Shown here: positions 7,909-24,554 of the stretch, piece after piece
Layout of the letters: every line of letters starts with the position of its first letter
Position numbering within the stretch: the first letter of the stretch is position 1
Origin: Halobacteria archaeon
GTDB taxonomy: Archaea > Halobacteriota > Syntropharchaeia > JACQPP01
Assembly (NCBI GenBank): GCA_038869515.1
Contig: JAWCQZ010000001.1
Location: 242,534 to 306,533, forward strand
Reading direction: 5' to 3'
Length of the DNA stretch: 64,000 nucleotides
Made by a program: the position numbers and the translations under genes
Notes under the pieces: generated by a model
What the model was told of the DNA's origin: nothing
Seen by the model: only the letters and a program-made list of their open reading frames with translations
Database searches by the model: none

Positions 7909-9576
7909 ATGGCCTCGCAACCCCGTCGCGAGCCGTCCCCTGCTTCGCACGGGACTGCCCGGTCGGCTCCACCACCCGCCGCCTCCCCGCGCCGCGTCGA
8001 GCCGGCATTCGAAATCCTCGCCAAGGACATGGCGGGCCGCTTCGGCAGGCTCGAGACCCCTCACGGCGTTCTGGAGACCCCCGCCCTCTTCCCGGTGGTG
8101 AATCCCCACATCCCCCTCCTTCCTCTCTCTCGAATCCAGGAGTGCGGGGCCAAGGCCCTCATCACCAACGCATCCATCCTTTTCAAGGACCCGGAGTTGC
8201 GGGCCCGGGCCGAGACGGAGGGGGTCCACCGGCTTCTCGGGTTCGACGGGCCCGTGATGACCGACTCGGGGGCCTTCCAACTCTCGCGCTACGGCGACGC
8301 CGGGGTGACCAACGCCGAGATTGTCGGGTTCCAGAGGCGCATCGGCGTGGACATCGCGGTTCCCCTCGACCTCCCCACGCCCCCGGACGCCCCCGCGGAA
8401 GAGGCGGCCCGCCAGTGGGACGGGACCCTCGCCCGCATTCGCGAGGCCAAGGAGCTCTGGGACGATGGGCCCGGCTTGCTGGCGATGCCGGTCCAGGGTG
8501 GGCTCCACCCCGCCCTGCGGCGCAAAGCCGGTGAAGCGGTGGCGGCCCTCGGCCCCGGGGTCGCGCCCGTCGGCGCCGTCGTCCCGCTGATGGAATCCCA
8601 GCGCTACGCCGACCTGGTGGACGTGGTGGTGGCCGCGAAGCAGGGCCTCGGCCCCGGAGTCCCGGTCCACCTCTTCGGCGCGGGCCACCCGGCCACCTTC
8701 CCGCTGGCCGCGGCCCTCGGGTGCGACCTCTTCGACTCCGCCTCCTACGCCCTCTACGCCAAGGAGAGGCGCTACATGACGCCGACCGGGACGCTCCGCC
8801 TCGACGAGGTGCGGGAGCTGCCGTGCGCCTGCCCGGTCTGCGCCTCCCGCGGGCCCGGGGACCTCGACGGGGCGCTGCTGGCGGAGCACAACCTGCGGGC
8901 GACCCTCGCGGCGGTCCGGGAGGTGCGGCAGGCGATCCGCTCCCACGCCCTGCCCGACCTGGTGGAGATGCGCTGCCGGAGCCACCCCGCCCTCCTGGCG
9001 GGCTACCGGAGGCTCCTGGAGGAGCACGGCGACTGGCTGGAGCGGAACCACCCGAACGGTCCCGAGCCCTTCCACCACCGGGGCCCCGAGTCGGCCCTCC
9101 GGCCCGAGATCCGGCGACACCTCCGCTCGATGGCCCGGTGGCCCCTGAAGGGGCACATCCTGGTGACCTGCTTTCCAACCGAAGCGGGGGGAGGGGTCAA
9201 GCGGGCGCCACCTGCGGCTGCGCCCGGCAGCGAAGAGCAGAGCGAGACCCGCAACGCGACCCCGCTCCACAGCGGAAGACGAACGTCGCGGGCCGAGAGG
9301 GGGGCTTCGCCCCGCTCCCCGGGTCCTTCGTTCGACCGCGTCCTGACTCTCAAGCCCCTCTTCGGCCCCGTTCCCCCGGAGCTGGAGGAGAGCGCCCCCG
9401 CGGGCCAGGCCCTTCTCCTGGAGGATCGGGAGTCGTGGCGGGCGGCCCTGGAGAGCCTCTGGGCCCTCATGGAGGCGCGGCCCGAGGTGCGGTGGACCAT
9501 CCACGGGCCCGCCTCCTGGGAGCCGGCGTGGGTGGAGAGGCTCGAGGGGCGCGCGGAGGTGGTCCTGCGTGGCTAG
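7909..9576 (+). CDS. tgtA: archaeosine tRNA-guanine transglycosylase
   Basis: FEILAKDMAGRFGRLETPHGVLETPALFPVVNP, TIM-barrel TGT motifs, zinc site CACPVCA. The C-terminal 120 aa are compositionally odd. Confidence 0.8.
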   Translation: MASQPRREPSPASHGTARSAPPPAASPRRVEPAFEILAKDMAGRFGRLETPHGVLETPALFPVVNPHIPLLPLSRIQECGAKALITNASILFKDPELRARAETEGVHRLLGFDGPVMTDSGAFQLSRYGDAGVTNAEIVGFQRRIGVDIAVPLDLPTPPDAPAEEAARQWDGTLARIREAKELWDDGPGLLAMPVQGGLHPALRRKAGEAVAALGPGVAPVGAVVPLMESQRYADLVDVVVAAKQGLGPGVPVHLFGAGHPATFPLAAALGCDLFDSASYALYAKERRYMTPTGTLRLDEVRELPCACPVCASRGPGDLDGALLAEHNLRATLAAVREVRQAIRSHALPDLVEMRCRSHPALLAGYRRLLEEHGDWLERNHPNGPEPFHHRGPESALRPEIRRHLRSMARWPLKGHILVTCFPTEAGGGVKRAPPAAAPGSEEQSETRNATPLHSGRRTSRAERGASPRSPGPSFDRVLTLKPLFGPVPPELEESAPAGQALLLEDRESWRAALESLWALMEARPEVRWTIHGPASWEPAWVERLEGRAEVVLRG

Positions 9577-11296
9577 GCCGCCGCCGGCGTTCGAGGTGGT
9601 GCGGAGGGACGGCCCCGCCCGCCTCGGGAGGCTCCGCCTCGACGGGACCTCGCTCCCCACTCCGGGCATCCTCCCGGTCTCCCGGACCCCCTGGATGGGG
9701 GAGTTCCGGCGCCGCTGGCAGTTCCGCGGCGAGGAGGCCTTCGAAGCCGGAGGGCTCCGGGTCTCCACCTCCCCCCGGGCCGAGGCCGACCTCTACCTCC
9801 TCCCCAAGTCGCGGGCCCTGGAGGGGCGCCCGCGGAGGTTCATGGAGGGGGTGGCGGAGTTCCGGGAGGCGGTCGGCCCGGACGGGGCGCTCTACCTGCC
9901 GGCCCTCGCCACGCCCGCGAACGCCGCGCTCCTCGCCTACGCGGGCGTCGACCTGGTGGACGATGTCCAGCCGCTCCTCGCGGCCCGCCAGGGGCTCTAC
10001 ATGACGCCGGCCGGCAGCCGCCCCCTCGGCGGGATGGAGGAGATGCCCTGCCCCTGCGACGCCTGTCGCCGGGGGGAGGGGGTTCGCGTAGGCGACGGCC
10101 CCCTCCCCCCGCCCACAGGCCCGCCCCCCGCCCCCCCCTCAAGGATGGACGCCGAGGCCCTGGCGCGCCACAATACGACCGCCCTGGAGATGGAGCTGCG
10201 GGCCGCGCGCGCCGAAATCCGCCGGGGGCGGATGCGGGAGCGCGCCGAGGAGCGGGTCCGGGCCGAGGCGTGGCAGGTGGCGGCCCTGAGGAACTTCGAC
10301 GCCCAGGGGAGCTACCTGGAGCGGAGGAGCCCGGTGAGCCGGGAGGCGCGCCTCGACGCCAACTCCATGGAGTCGCTCTTCAGGCCCGAGGTCCGCCGGT
10401 TCGCCGCGCGGGTCCGGGAGCGGTTCACCCCCGCGCCGGGACCCTGGGTCCTCCTCCCCTGCTCCGCCCGGAAGCCCTACTCCAACTCCCAGAGCCACCG
10501 GAGGTTCCGGCGCGCCCTGGAGCCGTGGCGCGGCTCCCTGCAGGAGGTGGTCCTGACCTCGCCCCTCGGGGTCGTCCCGCGGGAGCTGGAGCGGACCTAC
10601 CCGGCGGCCCACTACGAGACGCCGGTGACCGGAAGGTGGGACGGGGAGGAGCGCCTGTGGCTCCAGGAGTGCCTTCGGCCGCTCCTCGAGAAACACCGCC
10701 CCCCGCTCCTCTTCATCCACATCCCCGGGACGCCCGGGGAGGTGGCGCGGGAGGAGGGGCGGAGGCTCGGAATCGAGACCGTCGAGACCGCCGGGGCCGA
10801 CCCGGCCGGCGACGCGGCCCTCCAGGCGCTCCACAACGCGGTCGCCTCGGCGGGCCTCCCGAGGGCGCCCCACCGCCTCGGGCGCCACCTCCGGGCCGTG
10901 GCCGATTTCCAACTCGGCCCGGGGGCGGGGGAGCTCCTGATGAAGCACGGGAAGCCCACGATGCGGGGCGCGCGGTCGGGGCCCCCGGTGGCTGCGATCC
11001 GGAGCGTGGCGACGCTGACCCCGTCGGGGCTCCTCGCCCTCACCCTGAAGGGGGCCCGCGCCCTCGCCGGCGCGAGGTGGCCCGGACTGCGGGTCGAGAT
11101 CGACGACTTCCTCCCCACCGGCTCGGTCCTCGCCCCGGGGGTGACCCGGGCCGACGAAGCCCTCCGGCCGGGCGACGAGGCGGTCTTCGAGGGGCCCCGC
11201 GCCTTCGGGGTCGGGAAGGCCGCCATGGCGGGGTGGGAGATGGAGCGCGCCCGCCGGGGGGTCGCGATCCGGGTCCGGGAAGTGGAGCCGAAATAG
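9569..11296 (+). CDS. arcS: archaeosine synthase ArcS (TGT-like N-domain plus C-terminal PUA)
   Basis: N-terminal TGT-like FEVVRRDGPARLGRLRLDGTSLPTPGILPV, Cys cluster CPCDACRRG, C-terminal PUA-like segment (VEIDDFLPTGSVLAPGVTRADEALRPGDEAVFEG). Overlaps the tgtA 3' end by 8 nt. Confidence 0.75.
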   Translation: MARPPPAFEVVRRDGPARLGRLRLDGTSLPTPGILPVSRTPWMGEFRRRWQFRGEEAFEAGGLRVSTSPRAEADLYLLPKSRALEGRPRRFMEGVAEFREAVGPDGALYLPALATPANAALLAYAGVDLVDDVQPLLAARQGLYMTPAGSRPLGGMEEMPCPCDACRRGEGVRVGDGPLPPPTGPPPAPPSRMDAEALARHNTTALEMELRAARAEIRRGRMRERAEERVRAEAWQVAALRNFDAQGSYLERRSPVSREARLDANSMESLFRPEVRRFAARVRERFTPAPGPWVLLPCSARKPYSNSQSHRRFRRALEPWRGSLQEVVLTSPLGVVPRELERTYPAAHYETPVTGRWDGEERLWLQECLRPLLEKHRPPLLFIHIPGTPGEVAREEGRRLGIETVETAGADPAGDAALQALHNAVASAGLPRAPHRLGRHLRAVADFQLGPGAGELLMKHGKPTMRGARSGPPVAAIRSVATLTPSGLLALTLKGARALAGARWPGLRVEIDDFLPTGSVLAPGVTRADEALRPGDEAVFEGPRAFGVGKAAMAGWEMERARRGVAIRVREVEPK

Positions 11297-12142: not shown

Positions 12143-12236
12143 GGGACCCATGAGACCCCCCGCCGGGTATAAAGTTTCAGAGGCGGGGGGACGGAAACGG
12201 TTAAAATTGGGGCGGCGACCTCCCCCGCGGCCACCC

Positions 12237-12590
12237 ATGGAGGAGCCCCGTCTCGACGCCCTCGAACATCGAATCCGGGCCCTGGAGGCCCGCCTCCGCG
12301 CAGTGGAGGGGCGCCTCTCCTCCTCCCTCGGAGGGGCGATCGAGGGGGCCCCGCCGGGTCCCGGGGAGGCCCCGCAGGGCGCGGACGGGGAGGCGCTGCG
12401 GGAGCGGCTCCAGGGGCTGGGGGAGAGGGTCTACGCCCTGGAGGCCCACGCCCCCGCGCGGATGGCCGAAGCGCTCCTGCGGGTCGAGGCGCGCCTGGCG
12501 GAGCTGGAGCGCTCCCGGGCGGAGGCGGCCGCGGCCCCTGCTCCCCCGGCGGGGGGGCGCTCCCGGGGCCGGGGTCTCCGGCTCCTCTAG
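12237..12590 (+). CDS. hypothetical coiled-coil protein, 2 nt upstream of the E1 gene
   Basis: Ala/Leu/Arg/Glu-rich heptad-like repeats (LEHRIRALEARLRAVEGRL...LRVEARLAELERSRAEAAAA). Stop is 2 nt before the E1 ATG. Could be a spurious high-GC ORF. Confidence 0.35.
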   Translation: MEEPRLDALEHRIRALEARLRAVEGRLSSSLGGAIEGAPPGPGEAPQGADGEALRERLQGLGERVYALEAHAPARMAEALLRVEARLAELERSRAEAAAAPAPPAGGRSRGRGLRLL

Positions 12591-12592
12591 CC

Positions 12593-13669
12593 ATGGCCGG
12601 GAGGGGGGGACGCTACGACCGCCTCCGCGCCCTCGCGGGGTACGACCGGGAGCGTCTCGCCTCCTCGACCTTCCTCGTGGCCGGGGTCGGCGCCCTCGGC
12701 AACGAGGTGGCGAAGGACCTCGCCCTCCTCGGCGCGGGGCGGCTCCTCCTGGTGGACTTCGACCGGGTCGAGCCCTCCAACCTCTCCCGCTCGCTCCTCT
12801 TCCGGGAGGCGGACGTCGGGCTCCCGAAGGTCCGGGCGGCCGCGCGCGCCCTGCGCAACATCAACCCCGGAGCCGAAGTGGAGGCGGTCGAGGGGGACCT
12901 CCGGTGGGACCTCGGCCTCGGGACCCTCCGCCGCTGCGCCGTGGCCTTCGGGTGCCTGGACAACCGGGAGGCGCGCCTCGCCCTCAACCGCATGTGCCGC
13001 TCTGCGGGGGTCCCGTGGGTGAACGGGGGGCTCGACGGCTGGGACGGCGTGGTCGAGCTCTACCCGCCCCGGGGCGCCTGCTACGAGTGCTCCTTCACCG
13101 GGGCTGACTACGCGGCGGTCGCGGAGCGCTACTCCTGCCCGGCCCGTCCGCCGGCAGCGGGAGGCGTCCCCACCGCCCCCACTGCGGCCGCCATCGTGGG
13201 CGGGATGGCGGTCGAGGCGGGGCTCTTCGCCCTCCCGCGCGAGGCGGAGGCGCTCTACTACCGCGGCGGAGAGGTGGTCCGCTCCCGCCTCCAGCGGAGG
13301 CCCGGCTGCCCCGCCCACCATGCCCCGGGGCCGGTGAAGAGGTCGGGCCTGACGCCGGAGAGCCGGGTCCGGGAGTTGCTGGCGGCCCATCCGGGGACCC
13401 TCTTCCTCGACCGGGAGGTGGTCACCGCCCTCCGCTGCCTCTGCGGGCGGGGCCGGCGCCTCCGGGTCCCGCGCCTCCGGATGGACGGCGCCCTCCGCTG
13501 CCGGTGCGGCCGGGAGATGGCTTCCGAGACGGTGCGACGGGTCGGGACGGGGGACCCGCTGGCGGAGCGCTCCCTGAAGGAGTTGGGAATCCCGCCGGGC
13601 CATATCGTCGAGGTGGCCCGGGGGAACCGGTCCGTGTTCGTGGAGTTGAAGGAGGGCCGCCGTGGGTAA
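12593..13669 (+). CDS. E1-like ubiquitin-like-protein activating enzyme (ThiF/MoeB/UbaA family) with a Cys-rich C-terminal extension
   Basis: Rossmann nucleotide motif FLVAGVGALGNEVAKDLALLGAGRLLLVDFDRVEPSNLSRSLLF, a CxxC pair (CYEC), a crossover-loop Cys (YSCPARP), then about 100 extra residues containing CLCG...CRCG. Confidence 0.85.
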   Translation: MAGRGGRYDRLRALAGYDRERLASSTFLVAGVGALGNEVAKDLALLGAGRLLLVDFDRVEPSNLSRSLLFREADVGLPKVRAAARALRNINPGAEVEAVEGDLRWDLGLGTLRRCAVAFGCLDNREARLALNRMCRSAGVPWVNGGLDGWDGVVELYPPRGACYECSFTGADYAAVAERYSCPARPPAAGGVPTAPTAAAIVGGMAVEAGLFALPREAEALYYRGGEVVRSRLQRRPGCPAHHAPGPVKRSGLTPESRVRELLAAHPGTLFLDREVVTALRCLCGRGRRLRVPRLRMDGALRCRCGREMASETVRRVGTGDPLAERSLKELGIPPGHIVEVARGNRSVFVELKEGRRG

Positions 13670-14444
13670 ACTGGTCGTCGAGGTCGTGGACCACACCGCC
13701 TCCCGGCGGCGGAAGGCGGAGATTCCCGACTCGATGACCGCGGAGCGCGTCCTCGCAACGCTCGTGGAGAAAATGGGACTCCCCGCGGCGGACCCGGCGG
13801 GCCAGCCCATCACCTACCACCTCGACCACAAGCAGTCGGGCAAGAGGCTGAGGCCGGACCAGACCCTCAAGCAGGCGGGGGTCCAGAACGGCGACGTGCT
13901 GCGGGTCTTCCCGCGCATCGAGGCTGGCGCACCCTCCGGCGGACCCTCACCGCGCCTGCGCCGCCTGAAGAACGAGAGGCTCCGGCTGGGACGGCTCCGC
14001 TCCCCCCTCGTCACTTTCCGGACCGGGGGGGACCCGCCCGACGAGTACCGGGTGGAGTTTCTCTGCACGGGGCTGGCGAAGTCGGACGGAAAGATGGAGA
14101 GGCGAGGGCGCCACGAGGCGCACATCCTCCTTCCCGCCGACTACCCCGTGCGGCCTCCGGAGGTCCGGTGGCTCACGCCGCTGTTCCATCCCAACATCCT
14201 CGGGAGCGACCACCCCTACCACCCGGGAAAGGTCTGCCTCGGCCCCTGGACGCCCGCCCAGTTTTTGGACGACGTCGTGGTCCGCCTCGCCGAGATGGTG
14301 CAGTTCAAGGACTACGGCCTCCAGAGCCCGCTGAACCCCGAGGCCGCCGTGTGGGCGAAGGAGCACGAGGCGGAACTGCCGGTGGACCCGAGGGAGGTCC
14401 GGGAGCCCCAGGCGCGGGGGGAGGACATCGCGATTCTGGAGTAG
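13662..14444 (+). CDS. ubiquitin-like beta-grasp domain fused to a ubiquitin-conjugating enzyme E2 (UBC) domain
   Basis: GTG start overlapping the E1 stop. N-terminal about 95 aa has a ubiquitin-like pattern (KLVVEVVD...ITYHLDHKQSGKRLRPDQTLKQAGVQNGDVLRVFPRIEAGAPSGG). C-terminal about 150 aa has UBC hallmarks: DYPVRPPEVRWLTPLFHPNILGSDHPYHPGKVCLGPWTPAQ (HPN plus catalytic Cys) and SPLNPEAA. Confidence 0.8.
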   Translation: MGKLVVEVVDHTASRRRKAEIPDSMTAERVLATLVEKMGLPAADPAGQPITYHLDHKQSGKRLRPDQTLKQAGVQNGDVLRVFPRIEAGAPSGGPSPRLRRLKNERLRLGRLRSPLVTFRTGGDPPDEYRVEFLCTGLAKSDGKMERRGRHEAHILLPADYPVRPPEVRWLTPLFHPNILGSDHPYHPGKVCLGPWTPAQFLDDVVVRLAEMVQFKDYGLQSPLNPEAAVWAKEHEAELPVDPREVREPQARGEDIAILE

Positions 14445-14466: not shown

Positions 14467-15327
14467 TCAGAAGATTGAAAATGATAATCCGTCCCCCATC
14501 CTTTCAAGGAACCCCTCCACCAACCTCGCCAGTTCCCCCGGCCTCTCCACCGACGGCAGGTGGCCGCACTCCTCGATGATTTCGAGCCGCGCCCCCGGGA
14601 TGGTCCGCGCGAGCCGCTCCCCGAGTTTCAGCGACACCAGTCTGTCCTGCCGCCCCCACACCACCAGCGTCGGGGCGCGGATTTCGGCCGCCCGCTTCCG
14701 GTAACTGGTCGCGATGACGTGCATCATCGAGTTGAACCGGGTCCGTCGCCGCGCCCGCTCCTTCGGGTCCTCCCGCAACGCGGCGGCCCGCGCCTTCATC
14801 TCCTCGATGCCGGGGCGGTGGTCGTGGAAGGCGCGCTTCATCATGGAGCGCCCGATGACCGGCTCGAGCGCCTTGTAGATGGCGAAGGCGAAGTCGCTGC
14901 GGGCGCGCCTCCGGGCGAACCCCCGGGGGCGCCACATGCCCCCGGAATCGACCAGGACGAGCGCCTCGACCCGCTCGGGCCACCGGAGGGTGAACTCCAT
15001 CGAGACCATCCCCCCCATCGAGGAGCCGACCGGGACCGCGCGTCGCACCCCGATGGAGTCGAGCAGTTGGAGCGCCGAGCGGGCGAAGAACTCCAGGGTG
15101 TAGTCGGTGACCGGCACCTCCGATTGCCCGTAGGAGGGCAGGTCCACCGCGACGCAGCGCCACTTCTTCGACAATCGCTCCACCACCGCGCTCCACTGCT
15201 CGTGGGTCGAGGCCCAGCCGTGGAGGAAGAGGAGGGCGTCGGCGTCGCGCGGCCCTTCATCCACGTATGCGAGCCGGAAGGGGGGTGGGCCCGGGAGGTC
15301 GGCGAATTTGACCTGGAACCCGGCCAC
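14467..15327 (-). CDS. alpha/beta-fold hydrolase
   Basis: LFLHGWAST...GSSMGGMV nucleophile elbow (GxSxG) and C-terminal His region (ECGHLPSVE). Confidence 0.75.
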   Translation of the reverse strand: MAGFQVKFADLPGPPPFRLAYVDEGPRDADALLFLHGWASTHEQWSAVVERLSKKWRCVAVDLPSYGQSEVPVTDYTLEFFARSALQLLDSIGVRRAVPVGSSMGGMVSMEFTLRWPERVEALVLVDSGGMWRPRGFARRRARSDFAFAIYKALEPVIGRSMMKRAFHDHRPGIEEMKARAAALREDPKERARRRTRFNSMMHVIATSYRKRAAEIRAPTLVVWGRQDRLVSLKLGERLARTIPGARLEIIEECGHLPSVERPGELARLVEGFLERMGDGLSFSIF

Positions 15328-15960
15328 TTACACGCCTCGCCGGTCGCCCCAAAGAATCTTGTGCAATTGCAGCCCGTAGCGCGCCCCGGGGAACTCCGTC
15401 TTCACCCGTTCCGCGAATTCGAACTTCGAGTAGCAGTCCTTCTGCAGAATCAGGTTCGGGAGGTGGGCCCACTCCTTGGCGAAGGCGAGGTCCTCCGGCC
15501 CGCTCACCACGATTTTGAACTGGACCTTGGACCCGTGCTCGCGGAGGATGCGGCCGACGGCTTCCCGGTTGGGCGCGACGCCGCTGCTCGGCCCCTTGAC
15601 GTCGCAGGAGACGAAATCCACGGCCGTCATCACTTCGGGCTCGAAGTATTGTCCGCTCGTCTCGAGGCAGACCCAGTAGCCCCGCTCCTTCAGGAGCCGG
15701 ACCAGCCTCCGGATGTCCTGCTCGAGAGGCTCGCCGCCGGTGATGGAGACCCGCCGGCAGGGGAAGGCGGCCACGCGCCCCAGGACCTCCTCCTCGGTGA
15801 GGGCCGCCGAGCCCTTCGCCCTCTCGGGCCAGGTGTACTTGGTGTCGCACCAGGAGCAGCCGACCCTGCACCCCTGGAGCCGGATGAAGACCTGGGGGAG
15901 GCCCATGTGAAGCCCTTCGCCCTCCAGGCTGTGGAAAATCTCCGAAATCCGCAGGGCCAT
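15328..15960 (-). CDS. queE: 7-carboxy-7-deazaguanine synthase QueE (radical SAM)
   Basis: MALRISEIFHSLEGEGLHMGLPQVFIRLQGCRVGCSWCDTKYTW (CxxxCxxC). ATG overlaps the queC stop (ATGA). Confidence 0.8.
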   Translation of the reverse strand: MALRISEIFHSLEGEGLHMGLPQVFIRLQGCRVGCSWCDTKYTWPERAKGSAALTEEEVLGRVAAFPCRRVSITGGEPLEQDIRRLVRLLKERGYWVCLETSGQYFEPEVMTAVDFVSCDVKGPSSGVAPNREAVGRILREHGSKVQFKIVVSGPEDLAFAKEWAHLPNLILQKDCYSKFEFAERVKTEFPGARYGLQLHKILWGDRRGV

Positions 15961-16649
15961 CAGCGGCCCCTCCCGCTGGCCAGGAGCGGGTCCTCGACGC
16001 CCGCCTCCTCGAACCCCTTCGCCCGCAAGAGGCAGGAGTCGCAGCGGCCGCAGGGGCGCGCCCCCCCGGCGTAGCAGGACCAAGTGAGATGGAAAGGGAC
16101 GCCGAGGGCGAGCCCCCTCCGCACGATCTGGGCCTTCGTCATCCCGATGACCGGCGTCCAGATTCCGAGCGGCCTCCCCCCGGCGCCGCGCTTCGAGCCG
16201 AGGGCGATGGCCCGGGCCATGGCCCGGTAGTATTCGGGGCGGCAGTCGGGGTAGTGGGAGTAGTCCACCGCGTTCGCCCCCAGGACCAGCCGGTCGGCCG
16301 CCGCGACTTCGGCGCGGGCGGCGGCGAGCACCAGGAAGATGGTGTTCCGGAGGGGGACGTAGGTGCTCGGGATGCGCGGGTCGCGCAGGATCTCCCGCGC
16401 GCTCCGGCGGCGCTCCAGGGGGAGGCGGGCGGTGAGCGCGCTCCCGCCGATCTGCCGCAGGTCGACCCTCAGGACCCCGTGGCTCCGCGCCCCGAGGGCC
16501 CGCGCCACCGCCCGGGCCGACCGCAGCTCGCGCCGGTGGCGCTGGCCGTAGTCGAAGGAGAGGGCGTGGAGCTCGCCCCCCCGGGCGCGGGCGATGGCGG
16601 CCGCGACCGCCGAGTCCATGCCGCCCGAGAGGAGGCAGAGGGCCTTCAC
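15960..16649 (-). CDS. queC: 7-cyano-7-deazaguanine synthase QueC
   Basis: PP-loop LLSGGMDSAV plus C-terminal Cys cluster (CYAGGARPCGRCDSC). GTG start at 16649 inferred; the upstream part of the long ORF is Arg/Pro-rich junk. Confidence 0.75.
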   Translation of the reverse strand: MKALCLLSGGMDSAVAAAIARARGGELHALSFDYGQRHRRELRSARAVARALGARSHGVLRVDLRQIGGSALTARLPLERRRSAREILRDPRIPSTYVPLRNTIFLVLAAARAEVAAADRLVLGANAVDYSHYPDCRPEYYRAMARAIALGSKRGAGGRPLGIWTPVIGMTKAQIVRRGLALGVPFHLTWSCYAGGARPCGRCDSCLLRAKGFEEAGVEDPLLASGRGR

Positions 16650-16963
16650 GGCGCGAGCCTTCCTCCCGCCAGCTCCTCGAGCGTCTTCCGGAGGGAGTGG
16701 AGCCCGGCGAGCGCCTCTTTCGGGAGCGCGCAGCCGCACCCGCCGCAGGAGGGGCAGGAGAGCCACCCGCACTTCGCGCAGGTCCGGCCCCGGGAGGCTC
16801 CGAAGGGGGCGGAGCAGGCGAAGCAGTGGAGGCGGGGATCGGAGGCCCAGTCGAGGAATCCCTCGACCAGGCGGGAGAGGGGAATCCGCCGCGCGCGGGA
16901 GGCCCGCTTGGCCCGGGCGAGGGCCTTCGGGTCCACGGTGAGGGTCAACTTGGCCTTGGCCAC
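16646..16963 (-). CDS. ribbon-helix-helix (CopG/Arc-like) domain plus Cys-rich zinc-ribbon protein
   Basis: N-terminal MAKAKLTLTVDPKALARAKRASRARRIPLSRLVEGFL (RHH-like). C-terminal CFACS...CAKCGWLSCPSCGGCGC. Stop overlaps the queC GTG by 4 nt. Confidence 0.55.
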   Translation of the reverse strand: MAKAKLTLTVDPKALARAKRASRARRIPLSRLVEGFLDWASDPRLHCFACSAPFGASRGRTCAKCGWLSCPSCGGCGCALPKEALAGLHSLRKTLEELAGGRLAP

Positions 16964-17062
16964 GGCCGTGGATACGTGTGAATACGTATTTATGTTTGCC
17001 CGGGGCCCGGGCGGGCCGAGGGCGGAGAAGCCTCAAGGCGGCCCGGCGACGCAGGGGTAGGA

Positions 17063-18595: not shown

Positions 18596-19366
18596 CTACG
18601 AAGCGAGGAATCCTTCAATCGCCTTCGCGTCCTCGTCGGTGTGGTCGGCCATCAGCTCATGGCTCCCCCCCTCAACGGCGACGAACCGCGCCCCCGGAAT
18701 CCGTTCCGCGAGCTTCCGCCCCATCCTCCACGGCAGCAGCCGGTCCCTCGTCCCCGACACCACGAGGGTCGGCGCCCGGATGCGCCCCAACTCCTCCAGG
18801 GCGTTGTGGCGGAGCAGGGCCCCGTAGGCCCCGCGGACGGTCCGCGGGCCGGTGGCAAGGTGCTTGGCGATGGTCTCGGGCGTGGCCTTGTGGTAGGCGA
18901 GCCGGATGTTGACCGCCATCGCCTTGATGGTGAGCCGGAGGAGGAGCCAGTTGATGGCGGTGAGGAGGATCATCTTGGGGCCGTCCACCACCTTTCCGCT
19001 GGTGGCCGAGAGGATGAGCCTCTCCACGCGGTCGGGGAACATCAGGGCGAACCTCTGGGCGACCATGCCCCCCATGGAGTGGCCGCCGAGGATGCACTTG
19101 GGAATCTTCAGCGCGTCGAGGAGGCCCGCCAAGTCCCGCGCCATCTCCTCGATGGCGAACCTCCCGTCGGGCGGCACCCCGCTCCGGCCGTGCCCCCGGT
19201 GCTCCGGCAGGACCACCCGCCGGCTGCGGGCGAGCCGCTGGGCCACCGGGAGCCACTCGGTGGCGTCGGCGGTCCAGCCGTGGAGCAGCACCACGGGGGT
19301 CCCCGGGGCGCCCGGGTTCAACTCGTCGTAGCCGAGCCTCAAGCCGCGGACTTCGACCTCAGCCAT
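18596..19366 (-). CDS. alpha/beta-fold hydrolase
   Basis: VVLLHGWTAD...GGHSMGGMVAQ nucleophile elbow plus C-terminal His. Start set at the internal ATG (MAEVEV). Confidence 0.7.
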   Translation of the reverse strand: MAEVEVRGLRLGYDELNPGAPGTPVVLLHGWTADATEWLPVAQRLARSRRVVLPEHRGHGRSGVPPDGRFAIEEMARDLAGLLDALKIPKCILGGHSMGGMVAQRFALMFPDRVERLILSATSGKVVDGPKMILLTAINWLLLRLTIKAMAVNIRLAYHKATPETIAKHLATGPRTVRGAYGALLRHNALEELGRIRAPTLVVSGTRDRLLPWRMGRKLAERIPGARFVAVEGGSHELMADHTDEDAKAIEGFLAS

Positions 19367-20804
19367 CCCCTCTCCAGGCCCGGACAACCTCTAAAGCCCT
19401 CCGCCACCGGGCCCGCTCCCGGGCGCGCGGGAAGCCCCGCCGGGGTCGGAACCCCCGCTCCGCCCGGACCCGGTTCCGGGCCTCCCCGGCGTCCCACATC
19501 CCCGCCTCCAGCCCCGCCAGGAGCCCGACCCCCAGGGCGGTGGCCTCGGCCTCCGCGCTCCGGAGGACCGGAACTCCCAGAATGTCGGCCTGCATCTGCA
19601 TCCAGAGGGCGTTCCGGGAGCCTCCGCCCCCGGCCCGGAGGGAGCGGAGGGGGACCGCGCGCCCCATCACTTCGGCCCCGTCGGCGACCCGGTGGGCCAC
19701 TCCTTCGAGGACCGCCCGGACGATCTGCCCCCGCGCCGTCGCGCGGCTCAACCCGAGGAGTGCCCCGCGGGCCTCCGGGTCCCAGTGGGGCGCGCCGAGG
19801 CCCGAGAGGGCGGGCACGAAGAGCACCTCGCCGGAGTCGGGGACCTGGCGGGCCACCCGCTCCGACTGGCCGGCGGCCTCGAGGAGCCCGACGTTGTCCC
19901 GCAGCCACCGGAGCGCGTCGCCCGCGGTGAATATGGAGGCCTCGAGGCAGTAGGCGGGCCGGCCGGGCCGCTCCCACGCGACCGAGGCGGCCAGTCCAGG
20001 GACCGGTTTCGGCTTGGGCCCGGTGTTCGCCAGCAGGAACGCCCCGGTCCCGTAGGTGCACTCCGCCTCCCCGGGGCGCCAGCAGCCGTGGCCGAAGAGG
20101 GAGGCCTGCTGGTCCCCGAGGACCGCGGCGACCGGAACCCCCCCGACCTCCCCGAAGGGGCCGGTGCTGGGGCGGACCTCCGGGAGCAGGTCCTCAGGGA
20201 CCCCGAAGAGGTCGAGCAGGCCGTGGTCCCACCGACGAGTCCGGAGGTTGAGCAGGAGCGTCCGGGACCCGTTGCTCGGCTCGGTCGCGTGGAGCCCGGC
20301 AAGCCGGTCGAGGAGCCAGGCGTCCACCGTCCCGAACCGGAGGCGGCCCCTCCGGGCGTCGCGGCGGAGATCCGCGTCGCGCAGGAGAAGGGCGAGTTTG
20401 GTGGCGGAGAAGTAGGGGTCCACAGGGAGGCCGCTCCTCCGCCGGACCCACTCCCGCCTCCGCGACGGCATCGCGGCGCAGAACCCCGCGCTCCTCCGGT
20501 CCTGCCACACCACCGCCCGGGTCCGGGGGCGGCCTCCGGGCTCCCAGAGGAGAAAGGTCTCCCGCTGGTTTGTGAGGCCGAGGGCCCGCACCCTGACCCC
20601 CCGGCGCCGGGCCTCCGCCAGGGCGCGCCGGAGGACCCGCCGGCTCTTCGCCTCGATCTCCCGAGGGTCCTGCTCCGCCCTCCCCGGGGTGGGGGTGCGG
20701 AGCGCCAGTTCGAGGGCGGCCCCGGCCGCCACCTTGCCCCGCGCGTCGAACACCAGCGCCCGGGTGGAGGTGGTGCCCGCGTCGAGGACGGCGACCCCCT
20801 CCAT
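19359..20804 (-). CDS. glpK: glycerol kinase / FGGY-family carbohydrate kinase
   Basis: N-terminal VAVLDAGTTSTRALVFD, FGHGCWRPGEAECTYGTGAF, C-terminal GGGSRNALWMQMQADILGVPV: FGGY signatures. Confidence 0.8.
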   Translation of the reverse strand: MEGVAVLDAGTTSTRALVFDARGKVAAGAALELALRTPTPGRAEQDPREIEAKSRRVLRRALAEARRRGVRVRALGLTNQRETFLLWEPGGRPRTRAVVWQDRRSAGFCAAMPSRRREWVRRRSGLPVDPYFSATKLALLLRDADLRRDARRGRLRFGTVDAWLLDRLAGLHATEPSNGSRTLLLNLRTRRWDHGLLDLFGVPEDLLPEVRPSTGPFGEVGGVPVAAVLGDQQASLFGHGCWRPGEAECTYGTGAFLLANTGPKPKPVPGLAASVAWERPGRPAYCLEASIFTAGDALRWLRDNVGLLEAAGQSERVARQVPDSGEVLFVPALSGLGAPHWDPEARGALLGLSRATARGQIVRAVLEGVAHRVADGAEVMGRAVPLRSLRAGGGGSRNALWMQMQADILGVPVLRSAEAEATALGVGLLAGLEAGMWDAGEARNRVRAERGFRPRRGFPRARERARWRRALEVVRAWRGDG

Positions 20805-23663: not shown

Positions 23664-24476
23664 TCAGCGGATGTAGTCGGGGGAGGGGGGAGCGCCCCCG
23701 GGCCCCTCCGGCTGGGCGCGCTTCAGCAACTGCTCGATCATCTTCCGCTCCATCGCCTGCCGCTCCGCCGCGGCCTTCTCCTGGCTCTTGATGCGCTTCT
23801 CCAGCCCCTTCAGGTCGAGCGAGAGGCCGAGCCACTTCGCGGCCACCTCCAGGACCGCCCGCGCGGCCCTGGGGTCCTCCGTCTGGGGGGTCGAGGACTC
23901 CCCGAGGAGGCAGGCCCCCGCGAGGGAGCGCTGCGCCGCGATGCCGAGGACGAGGCCGTTCAGGCCGGTGATGGAGCCCTCCCTCATGACTTGGACCCCG
24001 ATTTGCTTGAGTTCCCCGAGGGTCTTGGGATCGGTCGCCACCGCCCAGACCCGAGGGTCCTCCACGGGCCGCTCCAGGATGTAGGCCGCGGTGGCGACGA
24101 GCCGCGCCGCCCCCAGGCGCAGGGCCAGGCCGAGGACCGCCTCGGCAATCTCGTAGTGCGCCCGGACAGCCCCGGGGTTGGAGTTCTCCGGCTGGGTGTT
24201 GCCGGTGTAGATGATGAGGTCGGGGTCGCCCTTCCAGTAGTAGAGTTCGTTCTGGGTCGCCTCCACCATGCCGTCGTGGCAGACGATGTAGGGGGGGAAG
24301 GCGGGGGAGAGGAGGCGCAGGAAGGGCCTGGCCCCGAGCTGCTCGACGAGGTATTCGGCCGAGAGTTTCGCCACGTGGCCCATCCCCGGCAGCCCCACCA
24401 GGAGGGTGGGCGCCTTCAACCTGGGTTCGGGGGCGAGGGCCTGGAAAAAGAGGTTGGGTCCCGCCCGCTCCAGCAT
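23664..24476 (-). CDS. PAC2-family proteasome assembly chaperone (PbaA/PbaB-like)
   Basis: N-terminal LLVGLPGMGHVAKLSAEYLVEQLGA motif and overall PAC2 (COG1938) layout with a C-terminal helical tail. Confidence 0.7.
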   Translation of the reverse strand: MLERAGPNLFFQALAPEPRLKAPTLLVGLPGMGHVAKLSAEYLVEQLGARPFLRLLSPAFPPYIVCHDGMVEATQNELYYWKGDPDLIIYTGNTQPENSNPGAVRAHYEIAEAVLGLALRLGAARLVATAAYILERPVEDPRVWAVATDPKTLGELKQIGVQVMREGSITGLNGLVLGIAAQRSLAGACLLGESSTPQTEDPRAARAVLEVAAKWLGLSLDLKGLEKRIKSQEKAAAERQAMERKMIEQLLKRAQPEGPGGAPPSPDYIR

Positions 24477-24554
24477 CCCGGTTCTCTCGGCCGGACGGGG
24501 AAGAAGTTTGCCCGAGCAGGACTCTGGAGATTTCGCCTCGATACCTTCGCCGGA

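What the first reader, a model, noticed from the sequence alone, without database searches (positions are those of the whole stretch)
13662..13960. Ubiquitin-like domain ends in ...RIEAGAPSGG immediately before the E2 domain: possible self-encoded, processable modifier
The beta-grasp segment aligns in pattern with ubiquitin: a hydrophobic first strand KLVVEVVD, a conserved central Pro/Gly region, and a terminal VLRVFPRIEAG compared with LHLVLRLRGG. A diglycine (APSGG) follows a few residues later, directly before the helix that begins the UBC domain (PSPRLRRLKNERL). This mirrors polyubiquitin and Ub-fusion precursors that are cleaved after GG to release an activatable modifier. If processed, the E2 would deliver its own Ubl; if not, the fused Ubl could act as a non-covalent E1-recruiting domain.
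Basis: inference. Interest (0 to 1): 0.7.

Follow-up and report, generated by a model that had tools for sequence, protein, structure and literature searches.

The report
Archaeal ubiquitin-like protein fused to E2

Summary
Window 13662-14444(+) encodes a 260-aa protein with a ubiquitin-like beta-grasp domain (aa 1-89), a 6-residue linker (APSGGP) and a canonical UBC E2 (HPN motif, Cys192). It overlaps the stop codon of a ThiF-type E1 (12593-13669).

- The Gly-Gly (aa 93-94) is a chance feature of a hypervariable linker. It is absent from two of the three close orthologs, and the third has a different Gly-Gly formed by G89 itself.
- The conserved feature is Ile-x-Ala-Gly ending at G89. All 85 free-standing homologous Ubls examined contain this Ala-Gly at the end of the domain; 73 stop right after it and 12 carry a short tail.
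- All 42 Ubl-E2 fusions examined keep the Ala-Gly before a variable linker.
- G89 aligns with ubiquitin G76.

Cleaved Ubl-E2 precursors are already known: Type I Bub BubAB by experiment, and the 'Ubl with E2' proteins of Kaur et al. 2020 by prediction.

The unusual point is the minimal archaeal version: E1 plus the fusion only. No JAB peptidase, E3 or free Ubl was found in 64 kb of housekeeping genes, yet both fused domains are under strong purifying selection.

My best explanation is a precursor cleaved after G89 by a protease encoded elsewhere, followed by a canonical E1-to-E2 thioester cascade. Cleavage has not been shown.

The parts
12593..13669 (+). E1-like activating enzyme (358 aa). It has a ThiF adenylation domain, a CxxC motif (C163/C166) with C239/H242, the candidate catalytic Cys182 in the crossover region, a C-terminal zinc ribbon (C282/C284/C303/C305) and a small C-terminal domain.
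   Evidence: Pfam ThiF E=5e-45. It falls below every NCBIfam equivalog cutoff. Invariant residues come from the alignment with E1s of operons that have free Ubls. A profile of this family hits eukaryotic UBA7, UBA1, UBA6 and SAE2 (5e-46) more strongly than MoeB (2e-35). dN/dS is 0.28 against L014.
13136..13138 (+). Codon of E1 Cys182, the predicted thioester-forming cysteine.
   Evidence: Invariant Cys in the motif R-(R/Y)-(S/P)-C, downstream of the CxxC, in all six E1s aligned. Coordinates. The catalytic role is inferred from its position, not tested.
13662..14444 (+). Ubl-E2 fusion gene (260 aa). The GTG start overlaps the E1 stop by 8 nt, and a GGAGG lies 6 nt upstream.
   Evidence: ORF list and sequence. 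Pfam YukD plus UQ_con. An identical protein exists in NCBI, named 'EsaB/YukD family protein [Halobacteria archaeon]'. AlphaFold with 22 sequences gives mean pLDDT 88.6.
13662..13928 (+). Ubiquitin-like beta-grasp domain, aa 1-89, ending in R-I-E-A-G.
   Evidence: Free 89-aa Ubls from L001 and L006 align end to end with residues 1-89 at 45-48% identity. I86, A88 and G89 are invariant. The fold matches ubiquitin, SUMO, BilA and CsUb. dN/dS is 0.07.
13926..13928 (+). Codon of Gly89, the predicted C-terminal (activatable) glycine and predicted cleavage site. It is homologous to ubiquitin G76.
   Evidence: All 85 free Ubls contain the homologous ..AG at the end of the domain: 73 stop directly after it and 12 have short tails. 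All 42 fusions keep it. The Ubl profile aligns positions 59-87 to ubiquitin 46-74.
13929..13946 (+).
   Evidence: The linker varies in length and sequence in all four close orthologs and is 3-14 residues long in 42 fusions. pLDDT is below 50 at aa 88-91.
13947..14441 (+). UBC-type E2 domain, aa 96-260, with HPN (14187-14195) and catalytic Cys192 (14235-14237).
   Evidence: Pfam UQ_con. Eukaryotic E2s in the PDB match by sequence and by fold. Free-standing homologous E2s begin at the SPRLRRL motif. P177 and C192 are invariant and H176 and N178 are at least 90% conserved in 22 fusions. dN/dS is 0.17.
12237..12590 (+). Small Lys-free coiled-coil protein (117 aa) that ends 3 nt before the E1 start. 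Whether it belongs to the system is uncertain.
   Evidence: The same gene sits in the same position in L009. It gives only a sub-threshold Pfam DUF7310 match, 27 bits against a cutoff of 40. It is absent upstream of the E1 in L012. My earlier queries at 12235-12590 were out of frame.

Best explanation
The gene encodes a precursor in which a ubiquitin-like modifier (aa 1-89) is translated in one chain with its own E2. The fusion most likely arose when the stop codon between adjacent Ubl and E2 genes was lost in an ancestral E1|Ubl|E2 operon.

Proposed mechanism:
1. A peptidase encoded outside this operon, most plausibly a housekeeping archaeal JAMM/MPN+ enzyme, cuts after Gly89 (..R-I-E-A-G | A-P-S-G-G-P..).
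2. The released Ubl, ending in Ala-Gly, is adenylated by the co-translated E1 and passes as a thioester to E1 Cys182.
3. It then passes to E2 Cys192 and finally onto target proteins or onto itself, without a dedicated E3 in the operon.

Shown: the domain identities, the homology of G89 to the terminal Gly of free Ubls, conservation of the catalytic residues, and purifying selection. Inferred: the cleavage itself, the identity of the protease, both thioester steps and the targets.
For: (1) Homologous free Ubls contain the Gly that aligns with G89 at the end of the domain. Of 85, 73 stop right after it and 12 carry short tails. All 42 fusions keep ..AG followed by a variable 3-14 residue linker and then SPRxRRL.
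(2) The closest unfused relatives have the same gene order E1|Ubl|E2. L012 has a 45-nt gap between Ubl and E2. In Ca. Methanoperedens L015 the two genes are in frame, separated by TGA plus two codons. One substitution would therefore give the fusion.
(3) The E2 has no start codon of its own at the junction, so it is made only as the fusion.
(4) The fusion is maintained. Four assemblies carry it with in-frame linker indels. dN/dS is 0.07 for the Ubl, 0.17 for the E2 and 0.28 for the E1, at dS of about 0.43-0.53.
(5) The E1 keeps all residues that are invariant in E1s serving free Ubls, including Cys182. This makes sense only if some substrate with a free C-terminal Gly exists.
(6) The junction is the only disordered segment of the model.
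(7) Experimental precedents:
- BubCD cleaves the BubAB Ubl-E2 fusion after a conserved Gly (PMC11601596).
- BilC cleaves BilA after Ala-Gly (PMC10557695).
- HvJAMM1, encoded away from its substrates, cleaves a linear SAMP1-MoaE fusion exactly after the terminal Gly (PMC4443979).
- CsRpn11 processes the Caldiarchaeum ubiquitin precursor (PMC6043591).
Against: No JAB/JAMM gene was found in the operon, in the 64-kb window, or in the archaeal relatives L009, L014, L015 and L012. Every bacterial relative on a long enough contig has one or two.

Within the archaeal clade there are only four close orthologs, so their Ala-Gly conservation alone cannot separate 'cleaved' from 'uncleaved'.

Some archaeal JAMMs are strictly substrate-specific: CsJAMM does not cut CsUb-pre. 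A housekeeping JAMM may therefore not accept this Ubl.

There is no proteomic or biochemical evidence. The rest of the genome could not be searched.
Confidence: 0.55

Rival explanations
1. The fusion is never cleaved. The beta-grasp domain acts in cis as a permanent E1-docking or regulatory module of the E2. The modifier that E1 and E2 transfer is a different protein with a free C-terminal Gly, encoded elsewhere: a second YukD-like Ubl as in the Anaerolineales operons, or a SAMP.
For: No peptidase was found in the operon or the window. Anaerolineales operons carry a Ubl-E2 fusion and also a separate free Ubl, so a fused Ubl can coexist with a free one.
Against: No second Ubl was found in the 64 kb. 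In the Anaerolineales the fused copy keeps the same ..TAG tail as the free copy and a JAB is present, which suggests the fused copy is cleaved as well. A docking-only domain would have no need for the Ala-Gly that all 42 fusions retain and that is largely kept in 22 fusions of down to 29% identity (A88 at least 90%, G89 in 18 of 22). The E1 family pairs with this Ubl family in every operon seen.
Confidence: 0.3
2. One reading: the precursor is cut after the diglycine G93-G94, giving a ubiquitin-style ..SGG terminus.
For: GG is the canonical ubiquitin, SAMP and CsUb terminus. The motif lies in the flexible linker.
Against: The APSGG sequence is absent from the close orthologs, whose linkers read AGP, GA and SGM. 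P0003 has a GG only because G89 is followed directly by G. No free homolog extends to an equivalent position. G89, not G94, aligns with ubiquitin G76. A GG in such a linker is expected by chance in 3-9% of cases.
Confidence: 0.05
3. The fusion is an artefact, or a decaying gene in which a sequencing error or a recent stop-codon loss has disabled the system.
For: Only a few closely related metagenome assemblies carry this exact fusion. The operon is stripped of JAB and E3.
Against: Four different protein sequences from independent assemblies share the fusion, with different in-frame linker lengths. dN/dS is 0.07-0.28 at dS of about 0.43-0.53. All catalytic residues are intact. Fusions of the same kind recur in Chloroflexota, Planctomycetota and other lineages.
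Confidence: 0.03

Closest known systems
Type I Bub (6E.1/DUF6527) BubAB Ubl-E2 fusion with BubCD JAB-E1 (Ye, Gong, Chambers, Corbett 2024, PMC11601596)
   Same: The Ubl is N-terminal to the E2 in one polypeptide. A conserved single Gly sits at the junction. The fusion is shown by experiment to be cleaved after that Gly to give an activatable Ubl. The E1 is a single-adenylation-domain, homodimer-type enzyme.
   Different: Bub E2 and E1 lack catalytic cysteines and work through Ser/Tyr oxyesters; here the E2 has HPN plus Cys192 and the E1 has a conserved Cys182. In Bub the JAB is fused to the E1 and a DUF6527 protease is present; neither is here. Bub Ubls often have 1-3 beta-grasp domains. Bub is bacterial and associated with defence regulators; this system is archaeal and sits among housekeeping genes.
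Prokaryotic 'tri-ligase' Ubl systems with E1, UBC E2, Prok-RING E3 and JAB (Burroughs, Iyer, Aravind 2011, recalled from memory; Kaur et al. 2020, PMC7159879)
   Same: These are probably the same protein families. Relatives found here (L001, L094) combine this E2, this YukD-like Ubl, this E1, a JAB and a small Prok-RING-like protein, and sometimes a Pup ligase, vWA and patatin. [quoted passage not shown]
   Different: The window version has no JAB, no RING, no EAD1 adaptor, no effector and no free Ubl. It is a two-gene core in an archaeon. Those systems were described in multicellular bacteria as conflict systems.
Caldiarchaeum subterraneum ubiquitin operon (Ub-pre, E1, E2, srfp RING, Rpn11; PMC5654768, PMC6043591)
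   Same: It is an archaeal, eukaryote-like E1/E2/Ub set. The Ub is made as a precursor and must be cut by a JAMM to expose its terminal Gly. The Ubl fold matches CsUb (6fj7).
   Different: CsUb-pre has a 9-residue tail rather than an E2 attached. Its terminus is Gly-Gly. Rpn11 and a RING E3 are in the operon.
BilABCD (Bacterial ISG15-like) systems (PMC10557695)
   Same: The Ubl has a conserved Ala-Gly followed by up to nine non-conserved residues that the JAB peptidase BilC removes. The cascade runs through Cys thioesters. The Ubl model matches BilA (8tyx_A).
   Different: [quoted passage not shown] The Type II Bil E2 is the divergent CEHH type without HPN. The Ubl is not fused to the E2. PADLOC BilD and Cap2 models hit only the Rossmann part of this E1 weakly, and no PADLOC model hits the fusion.
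SAMP1-MoaE / MoaD-MoaE linear fusions cleaved by HvJAMM1 or DRJAMM (PMC4443979)
   Same: A beta-grasp protein is fused through its terminal Gly to its functional partner. The fusion is inactive until a JAMM encoded elsewhere cuts exactly after the Gly. The host is a haloarchaeon.
   Different: The partner is a sulfur-transfer enzyme rather than an E2. SAMPs belong to the ThiS/MoaD family. There is no E2 step.
YukD/EsaB of type VII secretion (the Pfam family that names this protein)
   Same: Sequence similarity above the Pfam gathering score.
   Different: According to Iyer et al. 2006 (PMC1779556), YukD is not covalently conjugated to other proteins and its genes sit in ESAT-6/type VII secretion clusters. 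That it also lacks a conjugatable Gly tail is my recollection. The Ubl here has an invariant Ala-Gly end and is always next to an E1 and an E2.

Membership tests
UBC-type ubiquitin-conjugating enzyme (E2, Pfam UQ_con) | UBC alpha/beta fold | tested here: met
   Pfam UQ_con 39.8 bits against a cutoff of 27. AlphaFold pLDDT is 87-97 per 10-residue block over aa 101-240. Foldseek finds UbcH5c, Rad6 and Ubc13 at E of about 3e-7 with target TM 0.65-0.72.
UBC-type ubiquitin-conjugating enzyme (E2, Pfam UQ_con) | HPN motif followed by the catalytic Cys | tested here: met
   H176-P177-N178 and C192. All four are invariant in the 10-sequence alignment. In 22 fusions P177 and C192 are invariant and H176 and N178 are at least 90% conserved. 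There are 13 residues between N178 and C192, more than I recall for classical E2s.
UBC-type ubiquitin-conjugating enzyme (E2, Pfam UQ_con) | Forms a thioester with a Ubl handed over by an E1 | not testable with these tools
   Needs biochemistry.
Ubiquitin-like conjugatable modifier (beta-grasp with activatable C-terminal Gly) | Beta-grasp fold | tested here: met
Ubiquitin-like conjugatable modifier (beta-grasp with activatable C-terminal Gly) | Conserved Gly at the position of ubiquitin G76 | tested here: met
   G89. It is invariant in the six Ubls aligned and present in all 127 Ubl domains tabulated.
Ubiquitin-like conjugatable modifier (beta-grasp with activatable C-terminal Gly) | The Gly carboxylate is free, or is exposed by processing | tested here: inconclusive
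   In this gene G89 is followed by 171 more residues. Release is inferred from relatives and precedents. No peptidase was found nearby.
Ubiquitin-like conjugatable modifier (beta-grasp with activatable C-terminal Gly) | Gly-Gly terminus, as in ubiquitin, NEDD8, SAMP and CsUb | tested here: not met
   The family terminus is Ala-Gly. The nearby SGG is not conserved.
Type I Bub (BubAB/BubCD/BubE) | Ubl-E2 fusion protein | tested here: met
Type I Bub (BubAB/BubCD/BubE) | E2 with an invariant Ser (plus His/Asp) in place of the catalytic Cys; E1 without a crossover-loop Cys | tested here: not met
   The E2 has HPN plus C192. The E1 has the invariant C182. Defining features are taken from PMC11601596.
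Type I Bub (BubAB/BubCD/BubE) | JAB fused to the E1, and a DUF6527 serine protease in the operon | tested here: not met
   The E1 is ThiF plus a zinc ribbon only. There is no JAMM motif. The neighbouring genes are ribosomal proteins and an alpha/beta hydrolase.
Prokaryotic E1/E2/RING/JAB Ubl systems (Burroughs 2011; Kaur 2020) | Homologous E1, UBC E2 and Ubl encoded together | tested here: met
   The same three families co-occur in L001, L006, L013, L016-L095.
Prokaryotic E1/E2/RING/JAB Ubl systems (Burroughs 2011; Kaur 2020) | JAB deubiquitinase in the operon | tested here: not met
   Absent from the window and from the archaeal loci L009, L014, L015 and L012.
Prokaryotic E1/E2/RING/JAB Ubl systems (Burroughs 2011; Kaur 2020) | Prok-RING E3 in the operon | tested here: not met
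   No Cys-rich small ORF lies next to the operon. The upstream 117-aa protein is a coiled coil, and I saw no Cys in its translation.
YukD/EsaB (type VII secretion accessory Ubl) | Sequence match to PF08817 | tested here: met
YukD/EsaB (type VII secretion accessory Ubl) | ESX/WXG100 secretion gene context; not conjugated | tested here: not met
   No FtsK/EssC, WXG100 or EccD-like genes in the part of the window that was annotated (about 1-29 kb). The Ubl is always paired with an E1 and an E2. The NCBI name 'EsaB/YukD family protein' is therefore functionally misleading.

The most novel reading that the evidence does not exclude
The fusion is a JAB-independent design and is never, or not conventionally, cleaved. 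In this reading a euryarchaeal lineage runs a two-gene ubiquitin-type system in which the E2 carries its own Ubl permanently. The Ubl domain would then be a built-in E1-recruitment or self-regulation module. Alternatively it would be released by a protease class not yet linked to Ubl maturation, for example the alpha/beta-hydrolase gene that is the conserved convergent neighbour at 14467-15327. Either case would be a way of wiring a Ubl to an E2 that none of the characterised systems compared here shows.
Probability: 0.2. Interest if true: 0.75.

Novelty: new variant of a known kind. Interest (0 to 1): 0.45.

Why it matters
This archaeon is labelled Halobacteria by its submitter, and its closest relative with this system is a Ca. 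Methanoperedens. It carries an E1 whose nearest solved relatives are eukaryotic UBA1/UBA7/SAE2, a canonical HPN-Cys E2 and a ubiquitin-fold modifier, reduced to two translationally coupled genes among ribosomal and tRNA-modification genes.

If the fusion is cleaved, it is a natural minimal cascade that makes one modifier per E2. That would be convenient for reconstituting ancestral ubiquitination. It would also show that a housekeeping archaeal protease can mature a non-SAMP Ubl.

If it is not cleaved, it would be a new role for a Ubl domain on an E2.

In either case the work corrects a misleading database name (EsaB/YukD). It also shows that this widespread family uses Ala-Gly, not Gly-Gly, as its conjugation end.

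Tried and rejected
- PADLOC gave no model for the fusion and only weak partial Cap2/BilD hits for the Rossmann part of the E1. NCBIfam gave nothing for the fusion, and all E1 hits were below cutoff.
- The first related-loci run, with the 22-sequence alignment, failed because no stretch was conserved enough. It worked with 9 sequences.
- JAB search in the window: tblastn with four operon JABs, a JAMM motif regex over six frames and a custom JAB HMM. The only hits were in Arg/Pro-rich wrong-frame ORFs.
- I tested whether unfused Ubl and E2 genes that are in frame across a single stop codon indicate programmed readthrough. This occurs in 19 of 43 pairs, but every E2 has its own start codon just before SPRxRRL, the loci are phylogenetically related, and 44% is not clearly above one third. 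I rejected it as evidence of readthrough and kept it as the likely route to fusion.
- Autoproteolysis by an N-to-S or N-to-O acyl shift was rejected. The residue after G89 is A, A, G or S in the four orthologs, so there is no conserved nucleophile.
- The papers by Burroughs et al. 2011 and 2012 (PMC5938088, PMC5881585) are not held. What I say about them is from memory and from citations in PMC7159879 and PMC3417536.
- My first Pfam/NCBIfam queries for the small upstream gene used 12235-12590, which is out of frame. I repeated them correctly at 12237-12590.
- The single-sequence AlphaFold run gave a usable model only for the Ubl domain. The E2 domain needed the alignment.
Full report
**What is there.** Window 13662-14444(+) is a 260-codon ORF. 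It starts at a GTG that overlaps by 8 nt the stop of the preceding ORF, 12593-13669(+), and a GGAGG lies 6 nt upstream.
- Pfam places a YukD-type beta-grasp at aa 12-81 (E=1.7e-13) and a UQ_con E2 domain at aa 149-237 (E=4.4e-10). The upstream protein is a ThiF-family E1 (E=5e-45).
- An identical protein is in NCBI as 'EsaB/YukD family protein [Halobacteria archaeon]'.
- The neighbours are archaeal housekeeping genes: L7Ae, S28e, L24e, archaeosine tRNA-guanine transglycosylase genes, QueC, a radical-SAM protein, eIF2-alpha, aquaporins and Na+/H+ exchangers. This is not a defence island.

**Structure.**
- Without an alignment, AlphaFold already folds aa 1-87 confidently (pLDDT 73-95) as beta-beta-alpha-beta-beta. 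That model matches ubiquitin, SUMO1, the bacterial Ubl BilA (8tyx_A) and Caldiarchaeum ubiquitin (6fj7) with target TM of about 0.8.
- With a 22-sequence alignment the whole protein reaches mean pLDDT 88.6. The only stretch below 50 is aa 88-91, at the domain junction, and the E2 helix starts at residue 97.
- The E2 part matches UbcH5c, Rad6 and Ubc13. By sequence it matches UBE2G1, UBE2T and Rad6.
- H176-P177-N178 and C192 are conserved.

**Where the Ubl really ends.** Word-indexed search found only three close fused orthologs (81-90% identity), plus free-standing E2s that begin exactly at the SPRLRRL motif.
- In the four fused proteins RIEAG is constant. What follows differs in each: APSGGP, AGP, GA, SGM. 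The diglycine is therefore not conserved. A GG in such a linker is expected by chance in 3-9% of cases.
- The genomic contexts of the free E2s show a separate 89-aa YukD-like gene in the same operons. Those proteins end ..PEITAG-stop and align end to end with residues 1-89 of the fusion.
- The closest unfused relative, L012 (E2 48% identical, sharing the DHPYHP insertion), has the same order E1|Ubl|E2. Its Ubl ends ..AEIIAG-stop, 45 nt before the E2.
- A profile of these Ubls aligns positions 59-87 with ubiquitin 46-74, so G89 corresponds to ubiquitin G76.

**How general this is.**
- An exhaustive phmmer search found 2255 relatives. About twenty of the top 150 clusters at 50% identity are full-length Ubl-E2 fusions at roughly 30-46% identity. 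In an alignment of 22 of them A88 is at least 90% conserved, G89 is present in 18 of 22, and the catalytic Cys is invariant.
- A scan of species-representative genomes found 595 relatives. The best 80 loci are mostly Chloroflexota (Anaerolineae) and Planctomycetota (Pirellulaceae), plus one Ca. Methanoperedens (48% identity) and an uncultured 'Halobacteria' MAG (88%).
- I built HMMs for the Ubl, E2, E1 and JAB and searched all stop-to-stop ORFs of these loci. This gave 42 true fusions and 85 free Ubls. All 127 have ..AG at the homologous position. Of the free Ubls, 73 stop right after it and 12 carry short tails (CC, RR, GR, AQ, S, LAFH, ACCACCA and longer). The fusions continue with a variable 3-14 residue linker and then SPRxRRL.
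- The pattern of invariant tail followed by unconstrained spacer is what processed precursors show in BilA (PMC10557695) and CsUb-pre (PMC6043591).

**Operon types.**
- Planctomycetes: Ubl|E2|JAB|E1|JAB|E2'.
- Many Chloroflexota: E1|Ubl|E2|JAB|JAB.
- Anaerolineales: a long E1 with an N-terminal extension, which is a GntR domain in the one I scanned (L047), followed further downstream by a Ubl-E2 fusion, a free Ubl and a JAB.
- Actinobacteria-like loci: a small RING-like protein, the E2, an FHA or trypsin-domain membrane protein, the Ubl, the E1 and a JAB.
- The nearest non-archaeal fusion (P0011, 43%) sits with a Pup ligase, a second E1 and E2, a JAB, PP2C, vWA, Prok-RING_1 and patatin. Another locus is ThiF|Ubl-E2|JAB.
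- Every bacterial locus with enough contig has at least one JAB.
- The archaeal loci (window, L009/L014, L015, L012) have none in the DNA available. The window has no JAMM motif in any plausible ORF over 64 kb.

**Is the archaeal fusion functional?**
- Between the window and L014, dS is 0.43 for the fusion gene and 0.53 for the E1. dN/dS is 0.07 for the Ubl, 0.17 for the E2 and 0.28 for the E1.
- The linker has in-frame indels in each of the four lineages.
- The E2 has no start codon of its own.
- The E1 keeps every residue that is invariant among E1s serving free Ubls, including a Cys (C182) after the CxxC. By sequence it resembles eukaryotic UBA7, UBA1, UBA6 and SAE2 (5e-46) more than MoeB (2e-35).
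- An intact adenylating, Cys-bearing E1 under selection implies a substrate with a free terminal Gly.

**Mechanism.** The best-supported reading is a precursor.
- The fusion arose by loss of the stop codon in an E1|Ubl|E2 operon. In Methanoperedens the two genes are in frame, separated by only TGA plus two codons, and 19 of 43 unfused pairs are in frame across a single stop.
- The Ubl is then released by cleavage after G89 and activated by the E1. It is passed to E2 Cys192 and conjugated.
- Experimental precedents are BubAB cut by BubCD after a conserved Gly, BilA cut by BilC after Ala-Gly, and HvJAMM1, encoded elsewhere in a haloarchaeal genome, cutting a linear SAMP1-MoaE fusion exactly after the terminal Gly in vitro and in vivo.
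- The missing piece is the protease. It is not in the operon or the window. Some archaeal JAMMs are strictly specific. I could not search the rest of the genome.
- The main rival is that the domain stays attached and serves as a cis module while another Ubl is the modifier. The Anaerolineales operons, which have both a fused and a free Ubl, keep this open.
- I put the precursor model at about 0.55, the uncleaved model at about 0.3, cleavage after the GG at about 0.05 and an artefact or pseudogene at about 0.03.

**Comparison with known systems.**
- The architecture is not new. Iyer et al. 2006 listed polyUbl proteins fused to an inactive E2-like domain (row 6e). Type I Bub shows by experiment that such a fusion is a cleaved precursor. 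Kaur et al. [quoted passage not shown]
- It is not a Bub system. The Bub E2 uses Ser and the Bub E1 lacks a Cys, whereas Cys is conserved in both proteins here.
- It is not a Bil system either. The E1 architecture differs, the Type II Bil E2 is the divergent CEHH type, and PADLOC gives only weak partial hits.
- It is not a functional YukD/EsaB, despite the Pfam match.
- What is new is the variant: an archaeal, two-gene version without JAB or E3, in a housekeeping context, with the fusion as the only source of both modifier and E2.

**Verdict.**
- I class it as a new variant of a known kind, with moderate interest (0.45).

Noticed in passing
L015 8270/8271; L016 8255/8256; L025 7069/7070; 19 of 43 loci: In many genomes the free Ubl gene and the E2 gene are in the same reading frame with nothing but the Ubl stop codon, plus 1-40 sense codons, between them. 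Each E2 still has its own ATG. This makes fusion a one-mutation event. I did not test it for stop-codon readthrough beyond checking for start codons.
   Followed up: partly
L047 2738-4417 (scanned); similar long E1s in L049, L052, L055 and other Anaerolineales loci: The E1 of the Anaerolineales operons is about 560 aa. In L047 it carries an N-terminal GntR-type winged-helix DNA-binding domain fused to the ThiF domain (Pfam GntR 3e-17). I have not seen an E1 fused to a transcription-factor domain described before. Only L047 was scanned; the other long E1s were not.
   Followed up: no
P0054 (448 aa): This protein has the reverse architecture: CHAT-like domain, then UQ_con E2, then a YukD-like Ubl at the very C-terminus ending ..VIATAG. 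Its Ubl tail is already free, so the E2 could be charged with, or conjugate, its own tail.
   Followed up: no
L094 1-16837 (context of P0011): A large gene cluster holds a Pup ligase, two ThiF E1s, a free E2, a JAB, a Ubl-E2 fusion, PP2C phosphatase, vWA, Prok-RING_1 and patatin phospholipase. It fits the Ubl systems coupled to Pup conjugation that Kaur et al. 2020 mention.
   Followed up: partly
free Ubl C-termini in L079 (ACCACCA), L022 (CC), L062/L066/L068 (GR), L041 (RR), L036 and L050 (11-16 residue tails): A minority of free Ubls carry short extensions after the Ala-Gly, some of them Cys-rich (CC, ACCACCA). They look like pro-peptides that a JAB would remove. The Cys-rich tails are unexplained.
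   Followed up: no
window 12237-12590 (+): A 117-aa Arg/Ala/Glu-rich coiled-coil protein with no Lys ends 3 nt before the E1 start and is conserved in the same position in L009. It gives only a sub-threshold DUF7310 match. Whether it is part of the system as an adaptor or substrate is unknown.
   Followed up: partly
window 7909-11296 (+) and 15328-17036 (-): The E1/Ubl-E2 pair lies between genes of archaeosine/7-deazaguanine tRNA modification: two TGT-family genes (the second with DUF5591 and PUA domains) on one side and radical-SAM and QueC genes on the other. The TGT genes on the upstream side are in the same place in L009. No functional link was tested.
   Followed up: no
window 14467-15327 (-) and 18596-19387 (-): Two paralogous alpha/beta-hydrolase (S33-like) genes are present. 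The first is the convergent immediate neighbour of the fusion gene and is also next to it in L009, where a 154-aa gene with no Pfam or NCBIfam match lies in between that the window lacks. There is no evidence that it acts on the fusion.
   Followed up: no
window 23664-24554 (-): A PAC2-family protein (Pfam 4e-36) lies about 10 kb from the Ubl operon. From memory, PAC2 is the proteasome-assembly-chaperone family. This is probably coincidental.
   Followed up: no
L015 10306-10866 (-): The Ca. Methanoperedens locus has a second paralogous UQ_con E2 on the opposite strand, 1.5 kb downstream of E1|Ubl|E2. Planctomycete operons also carry a second, more divergent E2.
   Followed up: no
window 13662-14444; NCBI record of P0001: The public name 'EsaB/YukD family protein' describes only the first third of the protein and implies type VII secretion. 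The E2 domain and the E1 neighbour are not reflected in it.
   Followed up: yes
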